Virus record (IMG/VR): IMGVR_UViG_3300032167_000069
DNA length: 64,000 bases
Direction: 5' to 3' (one strand)
From: a virus
Lineage: Duplodnaviria; Heunggongvirae; Uroviricota; Caudoviricetes
Shown piece after piece: positions 15,275-27,984 of the stretch (position 1 is the first letter of the stretch; every line of letters begins with the position of its first letter). Both the position numbers and the translations under genes were made by a program. The notes under the pieces were generated by a model. It did no database searches and was not told the origin of the DNA. It saw nothing but the letters and a program-made list of their open reading frames with translations.

Positions 15275-15997
15275 TTACACCTCTTCCTTATCTTCATCAT
15301 AAAACCCATAAACTTTTCCATCATCAAGACAATACAGGGCTATAAAATTGCTTGCAGCGGTTCCGCAATCCAAATCTAATTTGTGACCATTATTATATAG
15401 ATATAAAGCCTTTCTATTATAATTTTCACATTTTAGATAATCTCCTGCTATTCCGCAATCAAATAAATGCCGACCAGAAGTGTGACCATGCACTAATATG
15501 ATATTTTCAGGAATTTCATCATCAACATAAAAGTGTTCTCTGTCCCACAAATAATCCCTAATTGCTTCTGGAGCACTATACGAAAATCCAGCATGGCTCA
15601 TTATGTATTTAACACCATTTTGATTAGTGTATGTGGCGGTTAATGGAAGATTATCAATTTCTTTTATCAGAGCAATTGGCGGACTATCGCTTTTAAACTC
15701 CTCAAAAGTTGTATAACCACCATTTTGAAACCAACATCGCATATAACTTCCATCCTGAGTTAAAACAGTTGTCGCAAATAAATCTTCGTGATTTCCTTTT
15801 AAATATATAAATTTGTTATCGCTCAAAATTTCTTTAATTATCGTATAGCCTCTTTTTCCACGATCTGCACAATCTCCTAAAACATAGCAGATGTCTTCTG
15901 GTTTTAAAAATGTTTTTATTTGCTTAAACAAGTTATAGTTCCCGTGTATGTCTGAAAAAGCATAACACTTTCCCATTTTTATCACCTCAAAATTCAA
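15275..15997 (-). CDS. Metallophosphoesterase (protein phosphatase / ApaH-like)
   Basis: DIHGN, GDCADRG and GNHE motifs. Confidence 0.6.
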   Translation of the reverse strand: MNFEVIKMGKCYAFSDIHGNYNLFKQIKTFLKPEDICYVLGDCADRGKRGYTIIKEILSDNKFIYLKGNHEDLFATTVLTQDGSYMRCWFQNGGYTTFEEFKSDSPPIALIKEIDNLPLTATYTNQNGVKYIMSHAGFSYSAPEAIRDYLWDREHFYVDDEIPENIILVHGHTSGRHLFDCGIAGDYLKCENYNRKALYLYNNGHKLDLDCGTAASNFIALYCLDDGKVYGFYDEDKEEV

Positions 15998-16715
15998 ACA
16001 CAGGCATTAGTTCAAGTTTAAATTTGTTTTTTTCGTGAAGATAATCAATGCGTTTTCTTGTTTCATCATCTTCACATACTCCTTCACGAATATATTTATC
16101 AAGAACGTCATAGGTAAATCCGAGATTATCTTCATCCGTTTTTTGACATAATCCATCCGAAGGAACTTTATCGACAAGATTGTCTGGCAGTCCTAATTCT
16201 TTGCCTATTTGTTTAACTTCACTCACGGTTAATTTGCCTAATAGTGAGACATCCCCAACACTGTCACCGTATCTTGTAGAATATCCAACCCAATCTTCAG
16301 ATAAGTTACAAGTGTTTATAACTCTACCATTTACCGACTGAGATACAGCGTATAATACGGACATACGGATTCTTGGGGGTAGGTTAATCGTTGCCTGTTC
16401 TGAAACAGCAATACCACTATGTTCTAATTGATTGTGAATCCCTGCCACAGCCACAGAAATAGGTATGGTAAAACTTTTGATGTCAAGATGCTCAACGAGC
16501 TGATAACTATCTTCAATATCATCCTGTTTTAGATTTGGCATAAGAACGCCTATAACTCTGTCTTTTCCTAATGCTTCAACACATAATGCAGCACATATCG
16601 AACTATCTTTTCCACCTGAAATTCCGATAACCGCATTACAACCCTTTCCGTTTTCTTCAAACCATTTTCTAATCCAATTAATTAAATCGCTTTTTACTGC
16701 TTTTGCGTCAAACAT
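15987..16715 (-). CDS. nadE: NH3-dependent NAD+ synthetase
   Basis: SGGKDSS is the PP-loop ATP pyrophosphatase motif. Overall length fits NadE. Confidence 0.6.
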   Translation of the reverse strand: MFDAKAVKSDLINWIRKWFEENGKGCNAVIGISGGKDSSICAALCVEALGKDRVIGVLMPNLKQDDIEDSYQLVEHLDIKSFTIPISVAVAGIHNQLEHSGIAVSEQATINLPPRIRMSVLYAVSQSVNGRVINTCNLSEDWVGYSTRYGDSVGDVSLLGKLTVSEVKQIGKELGLPDNLVDKVPSDGLCQKTDEDNLGFTYDVLDKYIREGVCEDDETRKRIDYLHEKNKFKLELMPVFEF

Positions 16716-16725
16716 TCACTCTCTC

Positions 16726-18036
16726 CTATTCGTAATTTACTTCATTTTTGTCTGTTCTTAATGCAACAAATACTGGGAACTGCAAACTTTCTGCATTTGT
16801 CCTCTTATCTGTTGATATTTCCTTATATTTAACTTCGCACAACATTCCGATTAAGTCATCCTTTTGCTTCCAATACAGTTGTCGTTGTTCGTCTGAAAAA
16901 CCAGAGCCCACCTTTACCTCGTTTCCTTTGTAATCGAGAACAAGAGCCCCCAACGTGCCTGATAACCTGCCTCCGCCCTCTTCATATCCGATGATTGGCA
17001 AGTCCATAGTATAAAACCGTTTAACTTTTAATATGCCATTATGCCTACAGCACTTATACGGAACATCAAGATTAACCATCAACCCTTCTTTATCCTCTTC
17101 TACCATTTTGTTGAGATAATAATTAATCTTTTCCACATTGCTCCCGCTATATAATACTGGTAGCACTTTTACATCATCACCCAATCGGTGAAGGCGAGAT
17201 ATTTTCATCAAATGTGCTCTTCTAAGAGAATAATTCAACGTTCCTTTATTTGAGCAAAACTCGTCTGTTGGGATTACATCAAACATTGTAAAACAGATAT
17301 CAGATTTATCACCATCGGAGTTAATTATTCCTGTGGCAACTCTAAATGCTTCATTGTCGCTTAATTCTCCCTTGTTTTTTAATGTAAGTTCTCCATCATA
17401 AACCATATCGCCATCAAGACTTTTTAATACCCTGATGATATGATCGAGTCCCTCAAATGGCATTCCGCTTCTTGCAATAAGTTCACCGTTATAGTATGTT
17501 GCTCTCACACCATTTAGTTTCTGAGTAAGAGTAAACCAAGCACCGTCTTTAATCGGATATTTTTCTATTGGGTATGCTTGTTGAACTTCCCATTCCGGAA
17601 TTAAATCAGGAATTACCTTATTAACAGTTTTCGCAGTAATCCCAAGTTTCAAAGACTTGGAGAGAATTTTTATATAAAACACTCTTTCATCTTCTGTGCA
17701 TTTCTTAAATAAGAAAGAATGGATTAACTCTATGAGTGCACTATTCACACTTTTAAGTTTTGATAAATGATCACATAATTCAAAAATATCATCAAACGCA
17801 TCAACCTTACGTTCTACGACTGGACTTACAACTAATTTTTTGGCTATTTCTTTTGAAATGTTATATGTAAGCAGTGGATTTAATGTATAAAAGAGTAGTT
17901 TTATAAACATTTCATTATCTTTGTTGTTTGCGATAATTTCTTGTTTTTTAAGCATTCCTCTTGTGTCTTTCAGCTTATTGATTTGCTCAATAGCCTCTAA
18001 CATCTTTTGCATCAAATCACCCCTTATCGCATTCAT
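16726..18036 (-). CDS. ATP-dependent DNA ligase
   Basis: KLNGVRA is motif I (KxDG/NGxR); the 436-aa ORF is nucleotidyltransferase plus OB sized. Confidence 0.6.
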   Translation of the reverse strand: MNAIRGDLMQKMLEAIEQINKLKDTRGMLKKQEIIANNKDNEMFIKLLFYTLNPLLTYNISKEIAKKLVVSPVVERKVDAFDDIFELCDHLSKLKSVNSALIELIHSFLFKKCTEDERVFYIKILSKSLKLGITAKTVNKVIPDLIPEWEVQQAYPIEKYPIKDGAWFTLTQKLNGVRATYYNGELIARSGMPFEGLDHIIRVLKSLDGDMVYDGELTLKNKGELSDNEAFRVATGIINSDGDKSDICFTMFDVIPTDEFCSNKGTLNYSLRRAHLMKISRLHRLGDDVKVLPVLYSGSNVEKINYYLNKMVEEDKEGLMVNLDVPYKCCRHNGILKVKRFYTMDLPIIGYEEGGGRLSGTLGALVLDYKGNEVKVGSGFSDEQRQLYWKQKDDLIGMLCEVKYKEISTDKRTNAESLQFPVFVALRTDKNEVNYE

Positions 18037-26637: not shown

Positions 26638-26649
26638 AATTATCCCCCT

Positions 26650-27438
26650 TTATTTCAATACAGTAATTTTCTCGTGTGCTAAAGAGAAAATACTATCCGT
26701 TGTATAGATGTGTTTAATCAAATCCGATTCGATTAACTCACCCTTAAAGATAGTATTCTCGCAATGTGTTATGTATAAATAAATGTCGTTTGCTCCAGCT
26801 TCTTTTAAAGCTTTTGCTGAATGATAAAATGTGCCGCCCTTGCTACAGATGTCATCTATAATAAGCACATCTCTATTTTTGACAAACTCTTCATTCATTA
26901 ATGTAATTCCTTGTATGTTCCCTGAACGCCAATCCCTACGTTTGATACCATAACTATATGGCATCTCAGAGATAATTTCGGAATATCGCTTCATTGCACC
27001 CTCATCTGGATAGAAAAGTGCAAAAGCATCTGTCTTTTTAGTTTTTGTGATAGCAGATATAATATATTTAAACGCATTATCTACTTTAAGATTGTTGATT
27101 AAAGCACAACTTACAGATGAATGAGGGTCGCACACATACACTGCCTCAAAGTTCAGTGAATTAATAAACTCTGCAAAATACTTTAATGTAAATATCTCAT
27201 CACTATTTTTCACACGATCCATTCTTGCGTTTGGAATATAAGGCATATGCAGAACAACAGAACATCCAAAACTTTGGAGATGTTTTGTAACGTAATAAAG
27301 CATAGCCATCTCTATATCAGATTCGTATTTCCACACTATTACTTGTTTTTCAGCAGACAAATCCGCATCCACTCTTAACGCCAAAGTTCCGTCAGGAAAC
27401 TGGTTATGACATAAAATCTTATCATTACATATCAGCAT
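26650..27438 (-). CDS. PRPP-synthetase-like phosphoribosyl pyrophosphokinase (Prs family; possibly an ADPR-PP synthetase of an NAD reconstitution pathway)
   Basis: VLIIDDICSKGGTF is the PRPP-binding loop. A DPH motif is present. At 262 aa it is shorter than canonical Prs. Confidence 0.5.
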   Translation of the reverse strand: MLICNDKILCHNQFPDGTLALRVDADLSAEKQVIVWKYESDIEMAMLYYVTKHLQSFGCSVVLHMPYIPNARMDRVKNSDEIFTLKYFAEFINSLNFEAVYVCDPHSSVSCALINNLKVDNAFKYIISAITKTKKTDAFALFYPDEGAMKRYSEIISEMPYSYGIKRRDWRSGNIQGITLMNEEFVKNRDVLIIDDICSKGGTFYHSAKALKEAGANDIYLYITHCENTIFKGELIESDLIKHIYTTDSIFSLAHEKITVLK

Positions 27439-27453
27439 TGCGAATACCCCCGT

Positions 27454-27984
27454 TTAATTTTCGTTAATTATCTCAATTTGACAAGGTTTCATTGCGTTCA
27501 ACGCTATAACGTGACTTTCTGGTGTTACGCCAGCACAACAGGACGCATCTACAACAATCGTTGATTCAGGTTTAGCAGCCTTTGCCATTAAAACATTTGA
27601 AATCACACAGATATCTGTGCATAATCCTACAAACTCTACATAATCGTACTCGCTTTCATTGATATAACGAGCCAAATCCATAGAGCCAAATGTTTTCTTC
27701 GTGAATATTTTAGCATTGCATTTAGAAGATTTGATTGCAACACAAATTCTATCATCAATTTGCCAACCATCCGTATCTTCAACGCAGTGAACAACAGGAA
27801 GCTTCTTTCCCTCGCTTGTTGCAAGATAATCTTCCTGATGGGTATCCATAGTGCAAACTATGTCTCCATCCCAGCCTGCTATCTTATTCTCAACATTCTT
27901 AACGATAGCTTTTGCTTCTTCTGTTCCTAATGCACCACCGATAAAATCGTGTTGCATATCAACAATAACCAAAAGTTTACTCAT
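27454..27984 (-). CDS. pncA: Nicotinamidase / isochorismatase-family hydrolase
   Basis: LLVIVDMQHDF and a C-terminal cysteine-containing core fit the isochorismatase fold. Confidence 0.55.
   Translation of the reverse strand: MSKLLVIVDMQHDFIGGALGTEEAKAIVKNVENKIAGWDGDIVCTMDTHQEDYLATSEGKKLPVVHCVEDTDGWQIDDRICVAIKSSKCNAKIFTKKTFGSMDLARYINESEYDYVEFVGLCTDICVISNVLMAKAAKPESTIVVDASCCAGVTPESHVIALNAMKPCQIEIINEN

What the first reader, a model, noticed from the sequence alone, without database searches (positions are those of the whole stretch)
15987..27984. NAD+ reconstitution and ADP-ribose processing gene set, possibly including a NARP1-type pair
NadE, a macro domain protein, a NAMPT/NadV-like phosphoribosyltransferase, a NADAR (YbiA-like) protein, a truncated PRPP-synthetase-like kinase and a PncA nicotinamidase occur within 12 kb on one strand. 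A Prs-like enzyme together with a NAMPT-like enzyme is the composition of the NARP1 pathway (ADPR to ADPR-PP to NAD+), which rebuilds NAD+ after NADase-based defences. The macro and NADAR proteins handle ADP-ribose. In this window the two NARP1-type genes are about 5 kb apart rather than adjacent. Two identifications are uncertain: whether the Prs-like enzyme makes ADPR-PP or PRPP, and whether the PRTase acts on nicotinamide, nicotinate or ADPR-PP.
Basis: partly seen in the sequence, partly recalled or inferred. Interest (0 to 1): 0.65.

Follow-up and report, generated by a model that had tools for sequence, protein, structure and literature searches.

The report
Split phage NAD-rebuilding module, deamidated variant
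A gut-bacteria phage carries a scattered copy of a widely conserved gene set that rebuilds the cofactor NAD+ after bacterial defences destroy it, and sequence evidence suggests it does so via nicotinic acid, a route not yet described for phages.

Summary
NadE, a macro protein, a NAMPT-like enzyme, NADAR, a Prs-like enzyme and PncA all lie on the minus strand at 15987-27984 of a phage from gut Clostridia.

The Prs-like and NAMPT-like proteins are homologues of the validated NARP1 enzymes Adps and Namat of phage SPbetaL1. They share 42% and 45% identity with them, and they are far from housekeeping Prs and from KVP40-type Nampt. The Prs-like protein is not truncated: Adps enzymes are this short.

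In more than 100 related contigs the same genes form a tight operon, PncA-Adps-Namat-(macro)-(NADAR)-NadE. The window holds a split copy.

Three findings suggest a deamidated route:
- Every operon-linked Namat has Ala or Ser in place of the Asp that hydrogen-bonds nicotinamide. Nicotinate phosphoribosyltransferases have Ser at that position.
- In 23 sister contigs Adps-Namat is replaced, between the same PncA and NadE, by PncB-NadD.
- No NMN/NaMN adenylyltransferase accompanies Adps-Namat.

Proposed route:
- PncA converts nicotinamide to nicotinate.
- Adps converts ADPR to ADPR-PP.
- Namat joins nicotinate and ADPR-PP to give NaAD.
- NadE converts NaAD to NAD+.

This is an inference from sequence and context, with no biochemistry. 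I rate it a new variant of a known kind.

The parts
27454..27984 (-). PncA-type nicotinamidase (176 aa). It is the first gene of the module and lies 15 nt upstream of Adps.
   Evidence: Pfam Isochorismatase 5e-23. The best solved structures are nicotinamidases/pyrazinamidases: 1ILW/1IM5 at 1e-10, then 2WT9, 3PL1, 3O90. The catalytic Asp9 and Cys126 (TDIC126V) and the metal ligands Asp47, His49 and His66 can be read from that alignment. The catalytic Lys is probably Lys96. A PncA sits directly upstream of Adps in 139 of 151 related loci.
26650..27438 (-). Adps (ADP-ribose pyrophosphate synthetase), a Prs-like enzyme of 262 aa.
   Evidence: 41.6% identity and E 4e-47 to the validated SPbetaL1 Adps, against 21-24% to E. 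coli Prs. It scores at most 69 bits against any solved Prs and falls below every NCBIfam Prs cutoff (103 against 113). ICP1 residues F18, R87, H121, D161, K185, D212 and D213 are conserved as F14, R72, H106, D145, K166, D195 and D196. The Prs C-terminal alpha11-alpha12 region is absent.
21843..26649 (-). A 4.8-kb block inserted between Adps and Namat. It holds a 62-aa zinc-ribbon ORF, a 252-aa ORF, tRNA-Met (25419-25495), a weak tRNA-like hit (25176-25283), tRNA-Gln (25071-25166), ORFs of 211 and 139 aa, an AAA ATPase (22862-23986), NADAR, and ORFs of 135 and 76 aa.
   Evidence: ORFs; tRNAs. Adps and Namat are adjacent in almost all relatives, including L006, whose Namat is 91% identical. A homologous AAA ATPase (PHROG 2376) sits between Adps and Namat in L019/L020 and next to Adps in L001.
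22402..22845 (-). NADAR protein (147 aa from the ATG at 22845), an accessory member of the module.
   Evidence: Pfam NADAR 5e-27. NCBIfam TIGR02464 scores 83 bits against a cutoff of 73.7. PHROG 1017 scores 2e-39. A NADAR gene sits inside the operon between Namat or macro and NadE in L040, L041, L048, L051, L055, L058 and L068. It lies within 10 kb of Namat in 24 of 151 loci.
20355..21842 (-). Namat-family transferase (495 aa) with an altered pyridine pocket. I predict it is a nicotinate ADP-ribosyltransferase that makes NaAD.
   Evidence: 402 bits (E 3e-119) to SPbetaL1 Namat structures 9W5X/9W5W, against about 150 bits to human and Xanthomonas Nampt (PDB identities from PMC12774641). It is 28% identical to the KVP40-like Nampt. 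The catalytic His243, Phe187, Arg190, Arg307 and Asp309 are conserved. SPbetaL1 Asp215 is Ala213 here, Gly213 is Asn211, and Ala242 is Ser240. Of the adenine clamp, Arg38 and Phe381 are kept, while Tyr396 is Cys385 followed by a 10-aa insertion.
18017..18466 (-). Macro-domain protein (149 aa) of the TARG1/DarG/Poa1p class. It is a candidate Adpp (ADPR-1''-phosphate phosphatase), or alternatively a de-ADP-ribosylase.
   Evidence: 36% identity and E 5e-28 to the macro gene that sits between Adps and Namat in Vibrio phage K412, a NARP1-AP-type operon. PHROG 335 'phosphatase' 6e-42. Solved structures: DarG 5M3I 8.5e-10, TARG1 3e-4, Poa1p 6LFQ 7e-4 over a partial stretch. A macro gene lies within 10 kb of Namat in 74 of 151 related loci.
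15987..16715 (-). NH3-dependent NAD+ synthetase NadE (242 aa), the last gene of the module.
   Evidence: Pfam NAD_synthase 4e-52. TIGR00552 scores 178 bits against a cutoff of 63.6. Solved structures: 2E18 5e-33 and 3FIU 7e-33. The SGGxDS loop is present. There is no glutaminase domain. NadE follows Namat in 137 of 151 related loci.
16726..18036 (-). ATP-dependent DNA ligase (436 aa). It is context, lying between macro and NadE, and is not part of the pathway.
   Evidence: Pfam DNA_ligase_OB_2 4e-12 and DNA_ligase_A_M 1e-6. It is found near the module in L006, L008, L013, L119 and L127.
18476..19348 (-). Thg1-like tRNA-His guanylyltransferase (290 aa). It is context, a frequent neighbour of the module.
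   Evidence: Pfam Thg1 6e-29. It neighbours the module in L007, L023, L037, L041, L065 and L068.

Best explanation
The window carries a split copy of a conserved phage counter-defence module, PncA-Adps-Namat-(macro)-(NADAR)-NadE. The module rebuilds NAD+ from the fragments left by NAD+-cleaving bacterial immune enzymes. It is a NARP1-family pathway that most likely runs through deamidated intermediates.

Proposed steps:
1. PncA deamidates the released nicotinamide to nicotinate and NH3.
2. Adps pyrophosphorylates ADP-ribose with ATP to give ADPR-PP.
3. The Namat-family enzyme, whose amide-binding Asp is replaced by Ala, joins nicotinate to ADPR-PP to give nicotinic acid adenine dinucleotide (NaAD).
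4. The NH3-dependent NadE amidates NaAD to NAD+.

The macro and NADAR proteins are optional feeders that release free ADP-ribose. Macro would act on ADPR-1''-phosphate. NADAR, and possibly macro, would act on ADP-ribosylated nucleic acid.

Shown here: the gene identities, the family memberships, the conserved operon, the residue substitutions and the cassette swap.

Inferred: the substrates (nicotinate, ADPR-PP, NaAD) and the counter-defence role.
For: 1. Family membership.
- Adps: 42% identity and 4e-47 to the validated SPbetaL1 Adps. It is below all Prs cutoffs. The catalytic residues are intact and the C-terminal truncation typical of Adps is present (PMC13586617).
- Namat: 402 bits to 9W5X/9W5W against about 150 bits to Nampt.

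2. Conserved operon.
- In scans anchored on Namat alone there are 111 distinct Namats of this clade. Of these, 102 have PncA, 105 have Adps and 97 have NadE within 10 kb on the same strand, and 91 have all three.
- In L006, for example: macro 8036-8482, PncA 8491-9015, Adps 9023-9829, Namat 10001-11482, NadE 11745-12503.

3. Specificity residue.
- SPbetaL1 Asp215 is the residue that hydrogen-bonds nicotinamide (PMC12774641).
- Its human equivalent, Asp219, defines Nam specificity (PMC7096376). D219S switches the substrate and D219A inactivates the enzyme (PMC4919578).
- The column is Ala or Ser in all 151 clade members. Of these, 147 have PncA or NadE nearby.
- It is Asp or Glu in all 14 Namat/Nampt proteins without such neighbours. 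These include SPbetaL1, FADO, ICP1, Staphylococcus K-like, mycobacteriophage and KVP40-like proteins.
- Gly213 to Asn/Lys/Arg and Ala242 to Ser co-vary with it.
- Profile-profile alignment places the invariant Ser of PncB's 'GTSN' motif on this column.

4. In-situ displacement.
- 23 contigs have PncA-(DUF5662)-PncB-NadD-NadE.
- Their NadEs are interspersed among the NadEs of Adps-Namat operons in an NJ tree.
- The two middle cassettes are never mixed: 0 of 23 PncB-NadD loci have Adps, and 0 of 87 Adps-Namat loci have PncB or NadD.
- So Adps plus Namat occupy the nicotinate-to-NaAD slot.

5. No adenylyltransferase accompanies Adps-Namat, whereas PncB always comes with NadD. The Prs-like gene never accompanies PncB, although PncB also needs PRPP. 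[quoted passage not shown]

6. NadE is the NH3-dependent type, and PncA releases NH3.
Against: - There is no biochemistry for any member of this clade.
- The Asp-to-Ala/Ser change traces to only one or two evolutionary events. The clade without Phass-1 is monophyletic in 197 of 200 NJ bootstraps. The placement of Phass-1 is unresolved, grouping with the clade in 31 of 200. The correlation is therefore partly phylogenetic.
- Human D219A is reported as inactive, not switched. The Ala variants rely on the untested idea that Asn211 and Ser240 compensate.
- The adenine 'selectivity clamp' is only partly kept. Tyr396 is Cys385 and is followed by a 10-aa insertion, so use of ADPR-PP is not assured.
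- The deamidated route costs one more ATP than canonical NARP1 for the same net product, and I can offer no demonstrated advantage.
- Four clade members (L011, L015, L136, L134) show no PncA or NadE in the DNA available.
- One of the closest solved relatives of NadE is the Francisella NMN synthetase (3FIU), which prefers NaMN.
Confidence: 0.6

Rival explanations
1. Canonical NARP1-AP plus a separate booster. Adps and Namat rebuild NAD+ directly from ADPR and nicotinamide, as in SPbetaL1. PncA and NadE independently reinforce the first and last steps of the host's own Preiss-Handler salvage, which would use host PncB and NadD.
For: The proteins are clearly homologous to validated Adps and Namat. 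All shared catalytic residues are intact. The likely hosts are gut Clostridia, which as a group salvage through the deamidated route (general knowledge, not tested here).
Against: PncA would destroy Namat's own substrate. The only residue that hydrogen-bonds nicotinamide is lost in all 151 clade members, and human D219A is inactive on nicotinamide. It is odd to carry only the two outer steps of a second pathway when sister phages carry all four in the same frame.
Confidence: 0.2
2. A PRPP-based deamidated salvage. The Prs-like enzyme makes PRPP. The NAMPT-like enzyme works as a nicotinate phosphoribosyltransferase that makes NaMN. NAD+ is then completed either by host NadD plus phage NadE, or by NadE acting as an NMN synthetase plus a host NMN adenylyltransferase.
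For: The pocket is nicotinate-like. Validated Namat retains PRPP activity in vitro (PMC12774641). The second aromatic residue of the adenine clamp is lost here. NadE matches the Francisella NMN synthetase 3FIU as well as it matches ordinary NadE.
Against: The Prs-like protein groups with Adps and fails all Prs thresholds. It co-occurs strictly with Namat and never with PncB, which needs PRPP just as much. No adenylyltransferase is found in any of 87 Adps-Namat loci, whereas every PncB locus has one. Phe381, the equivalent of clamp residue Phe392, is kept, whereas Nampt proteins have Gly there.
Confidence: 0.1
3. An auxiliary metabolic gene set with no role in immunity. The module simply raises or maintains NAD+ in the infected cell, for phage enzymes or for a slow-growing anaerobic host.
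For: NARP2-type pathways raise NAD+ whether or not a defence system is active. The PncA-PncB-NadD-NadE variant is an ordinary salvage pathway.
Against: A pathway that starts from free ADP-ribose yields NAD+ only when NAD+ has been cleaved. The module travels with other counter-defence genes: macro, NADAR, RNA-repair genes, Thg1 and tRNAs. The DNA ligase beside it is ATP-dependent, not NAD-dependent.
Confidence: 0.1

Closest known systems
NARP1 (Adps + Namat; phages SPbetaL1, Bas63, FADO, ICP1)
   Same: It has a Prs-like pyrophosphokinase of the Adps clade and a Nampt-like transferase of the Namat clade, at 42% and 45% identity to the SPbetaL1 enzymes. The catalytic residues are conserved. The two genes are adjacent in relatives and lie in a phage genome.
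   Different: The nicotinamide-binding Asp215 is Ala. Gly213 is Asn and Ala242 is Ser. The SCH clamp motif is interrupted. The pair is always flanked by PncA and NadE. In this window the pair is split by 4.8 kb. No cultured-phage NARP1 has PncA: only 7 of 50,697 GenBank phage records have it, and all 7 are uncultured human-gut sequences.
NARP1-AP (Adps + macro phosphatase Adpp + Namat; Vibrio phage Gary)
   Same: A macro protein of the TARG1/DarG/Poa1p class is associated with the module. It is 36% identical to the macro gene inside the operon of Vibrio phage K412, which has the same Adps-macro-Namat layout.
   Different: The Gary protein itself could not be compared. In this window the macro gene lies 1.9 kb from Namat and is closer in sequence to DarG than to Poa1p. 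Its activity is untested.
Preiss-Handler salvage (PncA-PncB-NadD-NadE)
   Same: The first enzyme (PncA) and the last (NadE) are the same, and the intermediates nicotinate and NaAD are predicted to be the same. Sister phages carry the complete classical pathway in the same operon frame.
   Different: The two middle steps, PncB and NadD, are replaced by Adps and a Namat-family enzyme. The adenylyl-ribose part would therefore come from ADP-ribose rather than from PRPP and ATP.
NARP2 (KVP40 NadV/Nampt + NatV/Nmnat)
   Same: It rebuilds NAD+ and uses a type II phosphoribosyltransferase-fold enzyme.
   Different: The window protein is only 28% identical to the KVP40-like Nampt. It keeps Phe at the clamp position where Nampt has Gly. 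No Nmnat was found in the window or in 87 related loci.
Phage NADAR anti-DarT factor (AdfN) and the DarG macrodomain
   Same: Both domain families are present and both are known to reverse ADP-ribosylation of DNA. The released product, ADP-ribose, is the Adps substrate.
   Different: No DarT-related test was possible. Here the genes are embedded in an NAD+-rebuilding operon rather than standing alone.

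Membership tests
NARP1 | A Prs-like protein that belongs to the phage Adps clade rather than to housekeeping Prs | tested here: met
   42% identity and 4e-47 to SPbetaL1 Adps, against 21-24% to E. coli Prs. It scores at most 69 bits to solved Prs structures and is below all NCBIfam Prs cutoffs. The C-terminal alpha11-alpha12 region is absent. 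No formal ML tree with many Prs sequences was built.
NARP1 | Adps catalytic and acceptor residues (ICP1 F18, R87, H121, D161, K185, D212, D213) | tested here: met
   All are invariant in alignment A4. In the window they are F14, R72, H106, D145, K166, D195 and D196. ICP1 F92 and D216 are not conserved, but they are not conserved in the validated SPbetaL1 Adps either.
NARP1 | A Nampt-like protein of the Namat clade, distinct from the Nampt/NARP2 clade | tested here: met
   402 bits to 9W5X/9W5W against 149-156 bits to Nampt. In the NJ tree it is sister to the validated Namats, with KVP40-like Nampt as outgroup.
NARP1 | Namat within ten genes of Adps (the criterion of Osterman et al.) | tested here: met
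   Eight protein ORFs and 2-3 tRNA genes lie between them in the window. They are adjacent in relatives.
NARP1 | Nicotinamide pocket with Asp215 hydrogen-bonding the amide | tested here: not met
   Ala213 occupies that column in the window. All 151 clade members have Ala or Ser there.
NARP1 | [quoted passage not shown] | tested here: inconclusive
   Arg38 and Phe381 are present. Position 7 is Cys385 and is followed by a 10-residue insertion before TRD.
NARP1 | ADPR to ADPR-PP to NAD+ activity, and protection from NADase defences | not testable with these tools
   This needs enzymology and infection assays.
NARP1-AP | A Poa1p-like macro phosphatase (Adpp) associated with the operon | tested here: inconclusive
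   It is homologous to the in-operon macro gene of Vibrio phage K412 (36%, 5e-28) and to PHROG 'phosphatase'. The best solved relatives are DarG macrodomains, and Poa1p matches only residues 3-62.
Housekeeping Prs (PRPP synthetase) | A score above the curated family thresholds, and presence of the C-terminal regulatory and filament region | tested here: not met
   TIGR01251 scores 103 against a cutoff of 113. All equivalog models are far below their cutoffs. The C-terminal region is missing.
NARP2 | A KVP40-type Nampt together with an NMN adenylyltransferase in the same phage | tested here: not met
   Identity to the KVP40-like Nampt is 28%. No cytidylyltransferase-like protein was found among the window ORFs scanned, and there was no NadD hit in any Adps-Namat locus. 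Only 64 kb of the genome is visible.
Preiss-Handler salvage | PncA, PncB, NadD and NadE all present | tested here: not met
   PncA and NadE are present. PncB and NadD are absent from the window and from all 87 Adps-Namat loci, although they are present in 23 sister loci.
PncB (NAPRTase) | The PRTase belongs to the NAPRTase family proper (NAPRTase_N domain, GTSN motif) | tested here: not met
   The N-terminal domain is NAMPT_N, not NAPRTase_N. Similarity to PncB is detectable only at profile level (hhalign E 2e-6).

The most novel reading that the evidence does not exclude
The Namat-family enzymes of this gut-phage clade catalyse a reaction not described for any enzyme: transfer of nicotinate onto ADPR-pyrophosphate to give NaAD directly. 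This would define a 'deamidated NARP1' (PncA-Adps-Namat*-NadE) that is interchangeable, cassette for cassette, with a phage-borne Preiss-Handler pathway. The switch would be set by replacing the amide-binding Asp with Ala or Ser, helped by Asn/Lys/Arg at position -2 and Ser at position 242.
Probability: 0.55. Interest if true: 0.85.

Novelty: new variant of a known kind. Interest (0 to 1): 0.72.

Why it matters
- NAD+ depletion is one of the commonest bacterial antiviral strategies, and NARP1 is the commonest phage answer to it. All characterised NARP1 systems come from cultured phages of Bacillus, enterobacteria, Vibrio and mycobacteria.
- This finding extends the arms race to abundant uncultured phages of gut Clostridia. 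It suggests that they rewired the pathway to run through nicotinate and NaAD.
- It names a concrete, testable new enzyme reaction and a small set of residues that may control it.
- Automated annotation as 'NARP1' or 'nicotinamide phosphoribosyltransferase' can hide a different chemistry.
- It raises the question of why the costlier deamidated route is favoured. One possibility is that it matches the host's salvage chemistry. Another is that it traps the pyridine as an anion. A third is that NaAD escapes the NADases.

Tried and rejected
- Nucleotide search of 15000-28500 against GenBank phages found nothing. All comparisons had to be made at protein level.
- I first assigned human Asp219 to the 'HDFGYRG' strand. 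Counting back from His247, and the Namat paper's numbering (F189, R192, D215), showed that it lies in 'GTDT'.
- The solved-structure library holds no Adps entry, so Adps could only be compared through phage genomes.
- Fetching the first 50 kb of ICP1 to find its Adps was wasted effort. The genes are at the far end of the genome.
- A BLOSUM-distance bootstrap timed out. It was replaced by a Kimura-corrected p-distance NJ bootstrap.
- Rfam found no NAD+ or other riboswitch near the module.
- The promoter and terminator scan gave fewer or no more sites than shuffled sequence, so it is uninformative.
- Literature and supplement searches for NadE, PncA, nicotinate or NaAD together with Adps, Namat or NARP found no prior description in the held library. 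Papers outside that library cannot be excluded.
- I considered and rejected that the Prs-like gene is a decayed fragment, and that the PRTase is a PncB.

Full report
**What is there.**
The window is part of a large phage genome with about 35% G+C.
- Genes at 1-50 kb all lie on the minus strand.
- It encodes a terminase, integrases, a sporulation-type sigma factor, and at least 8 tRNA genes.

Evidence for each of the six genes:
- NadE: Pfam 4e-52; TIGR00552 178 bits against a cutoff of 63.6.
- Macro protein: weak in Pfam. PHROG 'phosphatase' scores 6e-42, and the DarG macrodomain is the best solved relative at 8.5e-10.
- NAMPT-like protein.
- NADAR protein: Pfam 5e-27. Its real start is probably the ATG at 22845.
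- Prs-like protein.
- PncA-type nicotinamidase: the best solved relatives are nicotinamidases, and the Asp/Cys catalytic residues and Asp-His-His metal site are present.

Between these genes lie an ATP-dependent DNA ligase, a Thg1-like enzyme, an AAA ATPase, small ORFs and tRNA genes.

**The two NARP1-type genes.**
The NAMPT-like protein scores 402 bits (E 3e-119) against PDB 9W5X/9W5W and about 150 bits against human or Xanthomonas Nampt. The depositors' paper identifies those two entries as SPbetaL1 Namat (PMC12774641).

The Prs-like protein:
- Its best named hit in GenBank phages is the SPbetaL1 Adps, next to that Namat, at 41.6% identity and 4e-47.
- It is 21-24% identical to E. coli Prs.
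- It scores at most 69 bits against any solved Prs.
- It falls below every curated NCBIfam Prs threshold.
- The residues shown to matter in the ICP1 Adps structures (F18, R87, H121, D161, K185, D212, D213; PMC13586617) are all conserved.
- Its short length reflects loss of the Prs C-terminal alpha11-alpha12 region, which that paper describes as an Adps family trait. 'Truncated' is therefore a misreading.

Both proteins belong to the families that define NARP1 (Osterman et al.). The pair is separated by 8 ORFs and 2-3 tRNA genes, which still meets that paper's ten-gene criterion.

**The module in relatives.**
- The closest GenBank record is MT835544, from human faeces. It carries AAA-x-Adps-x-x-Namat-macro-NadE-PncA within 7 kb.
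- Scans of IMG/VR anchored on Namat or NadE, and a scan of species-representative genomes, returned more than 200 loci.
- The recurrent layout is a tight operon, PncA-Adps-Namat-NadE. A macro gene is present in about half of the loci and a NADAR gene in about one sixth. Either can sit between Namat and NadE, and macro can also sit upstream of PncA.
- Counting only the Namat-anchored scans, which are blind to the neighbours, there are 111 distinct Namats of this clade. Of these, 102 have PncA, 105 have Adps and 97 have NadE within 10 kb on the same strand, and 91 have all three.

The window holds a copy in the same gene order that has been pulled apart by insertions.

A sheep-rectum MAG contig (L111) is 99.4% identical to window 16113-24384. 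The relatives are binned with Lachnospiraceae, Oscillospiraceae and Ruminococcus MAGs from ruminant, rabbit, mouse and human gut. The host is therefore probably a gut member of the Clostridia. Binning is weak evidence, but the sporulation-type sigma factor agrees with it.

The module is mosaic:
- The window's Namat is 91% identical to that of L006, but its Adps only 50%.
- PncA, Adps and NadE are 71%, 71% and 82% identical to those of L019, but Namat only 60%.

**Why PncA and NadE change the reading.**
In GenBank phages, Namat/Nampt homologues occur in 2043 records and NadE in 49. PncA occurs in only 7, all of them uncultured human-gut sequences. None of the experimentally studied NARP1 phages has PncA. 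A nicotinamidase directly upstream of Adps would destroy the substrate of a canonical Namat. Three observations resolve this.

1. *The pyridine pocket.*
   - This Asp is the equivalent of human NAMPT Asp219, which defines substrate specificity. D219S switches the substrate and D219A inactivates the enzyme.
   - In the window the motif GTDT is NTAT, so the residue is Ala213.
   - Across 165 distinct Namat/Nampt sequences gathered here, the column is Ala (102) or Ser (49) in all 151 members of this clade. Of those, 147 have PncA or NadE within 10 kb.
   - The column is Asp (13) or Glu (1) in all 14 proteins without such neighbours. These include SPbetaL1, FADO, ICP1, Vibrio K412, Staphylococcus K-like, mycobacteriophage, Felix-O1-like, Pseudomonas and Acinetobacter proteins and two KVP40/T4-like Nampts.
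   - Gly213 to Asn/Lys/Arg and Ala242 to Ser change together with it.
   - A profile-profile alignment of the Namat family against PncB places the invariant Ser of the nicotinate enzyme's GTSN motif on this column.

2. *The cassette swap.*
   - 23 contigs have, between a homologous PncA and a homologous NadE, not Adps-Namat but PncB and a NadD-type adenylyltransferase. PncB scores NAPRTase 3e-67 with NAPRTase_N. The adenylyltransferase scores TIGR00482 at 103 bits.
   - In an NJ tree these NadEs are scattered among those of Adps-Namat operons.
   - The two middle cassettes never mix: 0 of 23 and 0 of 87.
   - Since PncB plus NadD turn nicotinate into NaAD, the simplest reading is that Adps plus this Namat do the same.

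3. *The bookkeeping.*
   - Adps-Namat operons never include an adenylyltransferase, and PncB operons always do.
   - The Prs-like gene never accompanies PncB, although PncB needs PRPP just as much.
   - Both facts fit an enzyme pair that brings in the AMP moiety as ADP-ribose through ADPR-PP, rather than through PRPP.

**Proposed mechanism.**
After a TIR, SIR2 or SEFIR effector splits NAD+ into ADPR and nicotinamide:
1. PncA converts nicotinamide to nicotinate and NH3.
2. Adps converts ADPR and ATP to ADPR-PP.
3. The Namat-family enzyme joins nicotinate and ADPR-PP to give NaAD.
4. The NH3-dependent NadE amidates NaAD to NAD+.

Net, this rebuilds NAD+ from the same two fragments as NARP1, at the cost of one extra ATP.

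Macro and NADAR are optional feeders:
- A Poa1p-class macro enzyme turns aRES-derived ADPR-1''-phosphate into ADPR in NARP1-AP.
- Phage NADAR proteins are known anti-DarT factors.
- The macro protein's nearest solved relatives are DarG macrodomains.
- Either activity would release free ADPR, which is the Adps substrate.

The gene identities, family memberships, synteny, substitutions and cassette swap are shown here. Every substrate assignment is an inference.

**Caveats.**
- The non-Asp clade is monophyletic without Phass-1 in 197 of 200 NJ bootstraps. Phass-1 is only 32% identical, has RTAT, and also has PncA and NadE. Its placement is unresolved, grouping with the clade in 31 of 200.
- The correlation therefore rests on one or two evolutionary events, although it has been maintained down to about 44% identity.
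- The loci fetched through NadE are biased towards having NadE. That is why the Namat-anchored counts are given separately.
- Human D219A is inactive rather than switched.
- The second aromatic residue of the adenine clamp is lost (Cys385) and is followed by a clade-specific insertion.
- NadE matches the Francisella NMN synthetase 3FIU as well as it matches ordinary NadE.
- I can give no demonstrated reason for the costlier route. Matching the deamidated salvage of gut anaerobes is my speculation.
- Only 64 kb of the genome is visible.

**Comparison with what is known, and novelty.**
The module is a member of the NARP1 family by homology of both core enzymes, and probably includes an Adpp-like accessory. 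It fails one defining feature of Namat, the nicotinamide-binding Asp, and only partly keeps another, the clamp. It is not NARP2, not a Preiss-Handler operon, not housekeeping Prs and not PncB.

No paper in the held library links Adps, Namat or NARP with NadE, PncA, nicotinate or NaAD. That includes the NARP1, NARP1-AP, NARP3 and RyDEP papers, the two structural papers, and the supplements of the NARP1-AP preprint.

I rate it a new variant of a known kind. It is moderately to highly interesting because it predicts a new enzyme reaction and is directly testable.

Noticed in passing
window 42076-42204, 42453-42571, 44167-44286, 44293-44409 (all minus strand); neighbouring gene 40402-41964: There are four long tRNA-like genes of 117-129 nt. 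Their acceptor, D and T arms are intact, and an insert of about 57 nt replaces the anticodon arm (Rfam tRNA 45-49 bits). ARAGORN does not call them. They lie beside a DUF2828/DUF7788 (TROVE/Ro60-like plus vWA) gene. They may be YrlA-type Y RNAs paired with a phage Ro-like protein.
   Followed up: partly
L035 7041-10732 and L062 6407-10738 (IMG/VR); 23 loci in all: A phage-borne complete Preiss-Handler operon, PncA-DUF5662-PncB-NadD-NadE. It occupies the same frame as the Adps-Namat operon, and its NadEs are interspersed with those of that operon. I found no description of it in the held literature.
   Followed up: partly
window 2709-7314, and 18476-19348: An RNA-repair gene set: two metallophosphatases, an RNA ligase with a PHA02142 OB domain, an AAA_33 kinase with an HD domain, and an RlaP-like nucleotidyltransferase. 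A Thg1-like enzyme and tRNA arrays accompany it. This looks like a counter to tRNA-cleaving defences.
   Followed up: no
window 22862-23986; L019 5385-6494; L001 18420-19520: An AAA ATPase (PHROG 2376, 6e-109) recurs beside or inside the NAD module. In L019/L020 it sits between Adps and Namat. Its function is unknown.
   Followed up: no
window 32865-34019 and 35225-36106: A reverse transcriptase (RVT_1, 2e-19) lies near a DUF6273 protein. This may be a diversity-generating retroelement. The template and variable repeats were not searched for.
   Followed up: no
window 25071-25166 and 25176-25283: The tRNA-Gln is unusually long (93-96 nt). A further weak tRNA-like hit of 108 nt (34 bits) lies just beside it, inside the block that splits Adps from Namat.
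   Followed up: no
window 11125-11562, 10124-11167, 50748-51578, 58734-59780, 53128-53661: A MazF/PemK-like toxin, three tyrosine-recombinase-like genes and a sporulation-type sigma factor are present. This suggests a temperate or plasmid-like lifestyle in a Firmicutes host.
   Followed up: no
window 13452-14606; L019, L037, L038, L051, L070 downstream of NadE: A NifS-like cysteine desulfurase (Aminotran_5, 4e-67) recurs a few kb downstream of NadE in several relatives. No link to the NAD module is evident.
   Followed up: no
L099 (phage Phass-1, OQ749652) 5998-10436: A code-15 (TAG-recoded) human-gut phage carries nicotinamidase, Prs-like, NAMPT-like, a 139-aa ORF and NadE. Its Namat is only 32% identical to the window's, yet it also has Ala at the Asp215 column (RTAT). 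This may be a second, independent origin of the variant.
   Followed up: partly
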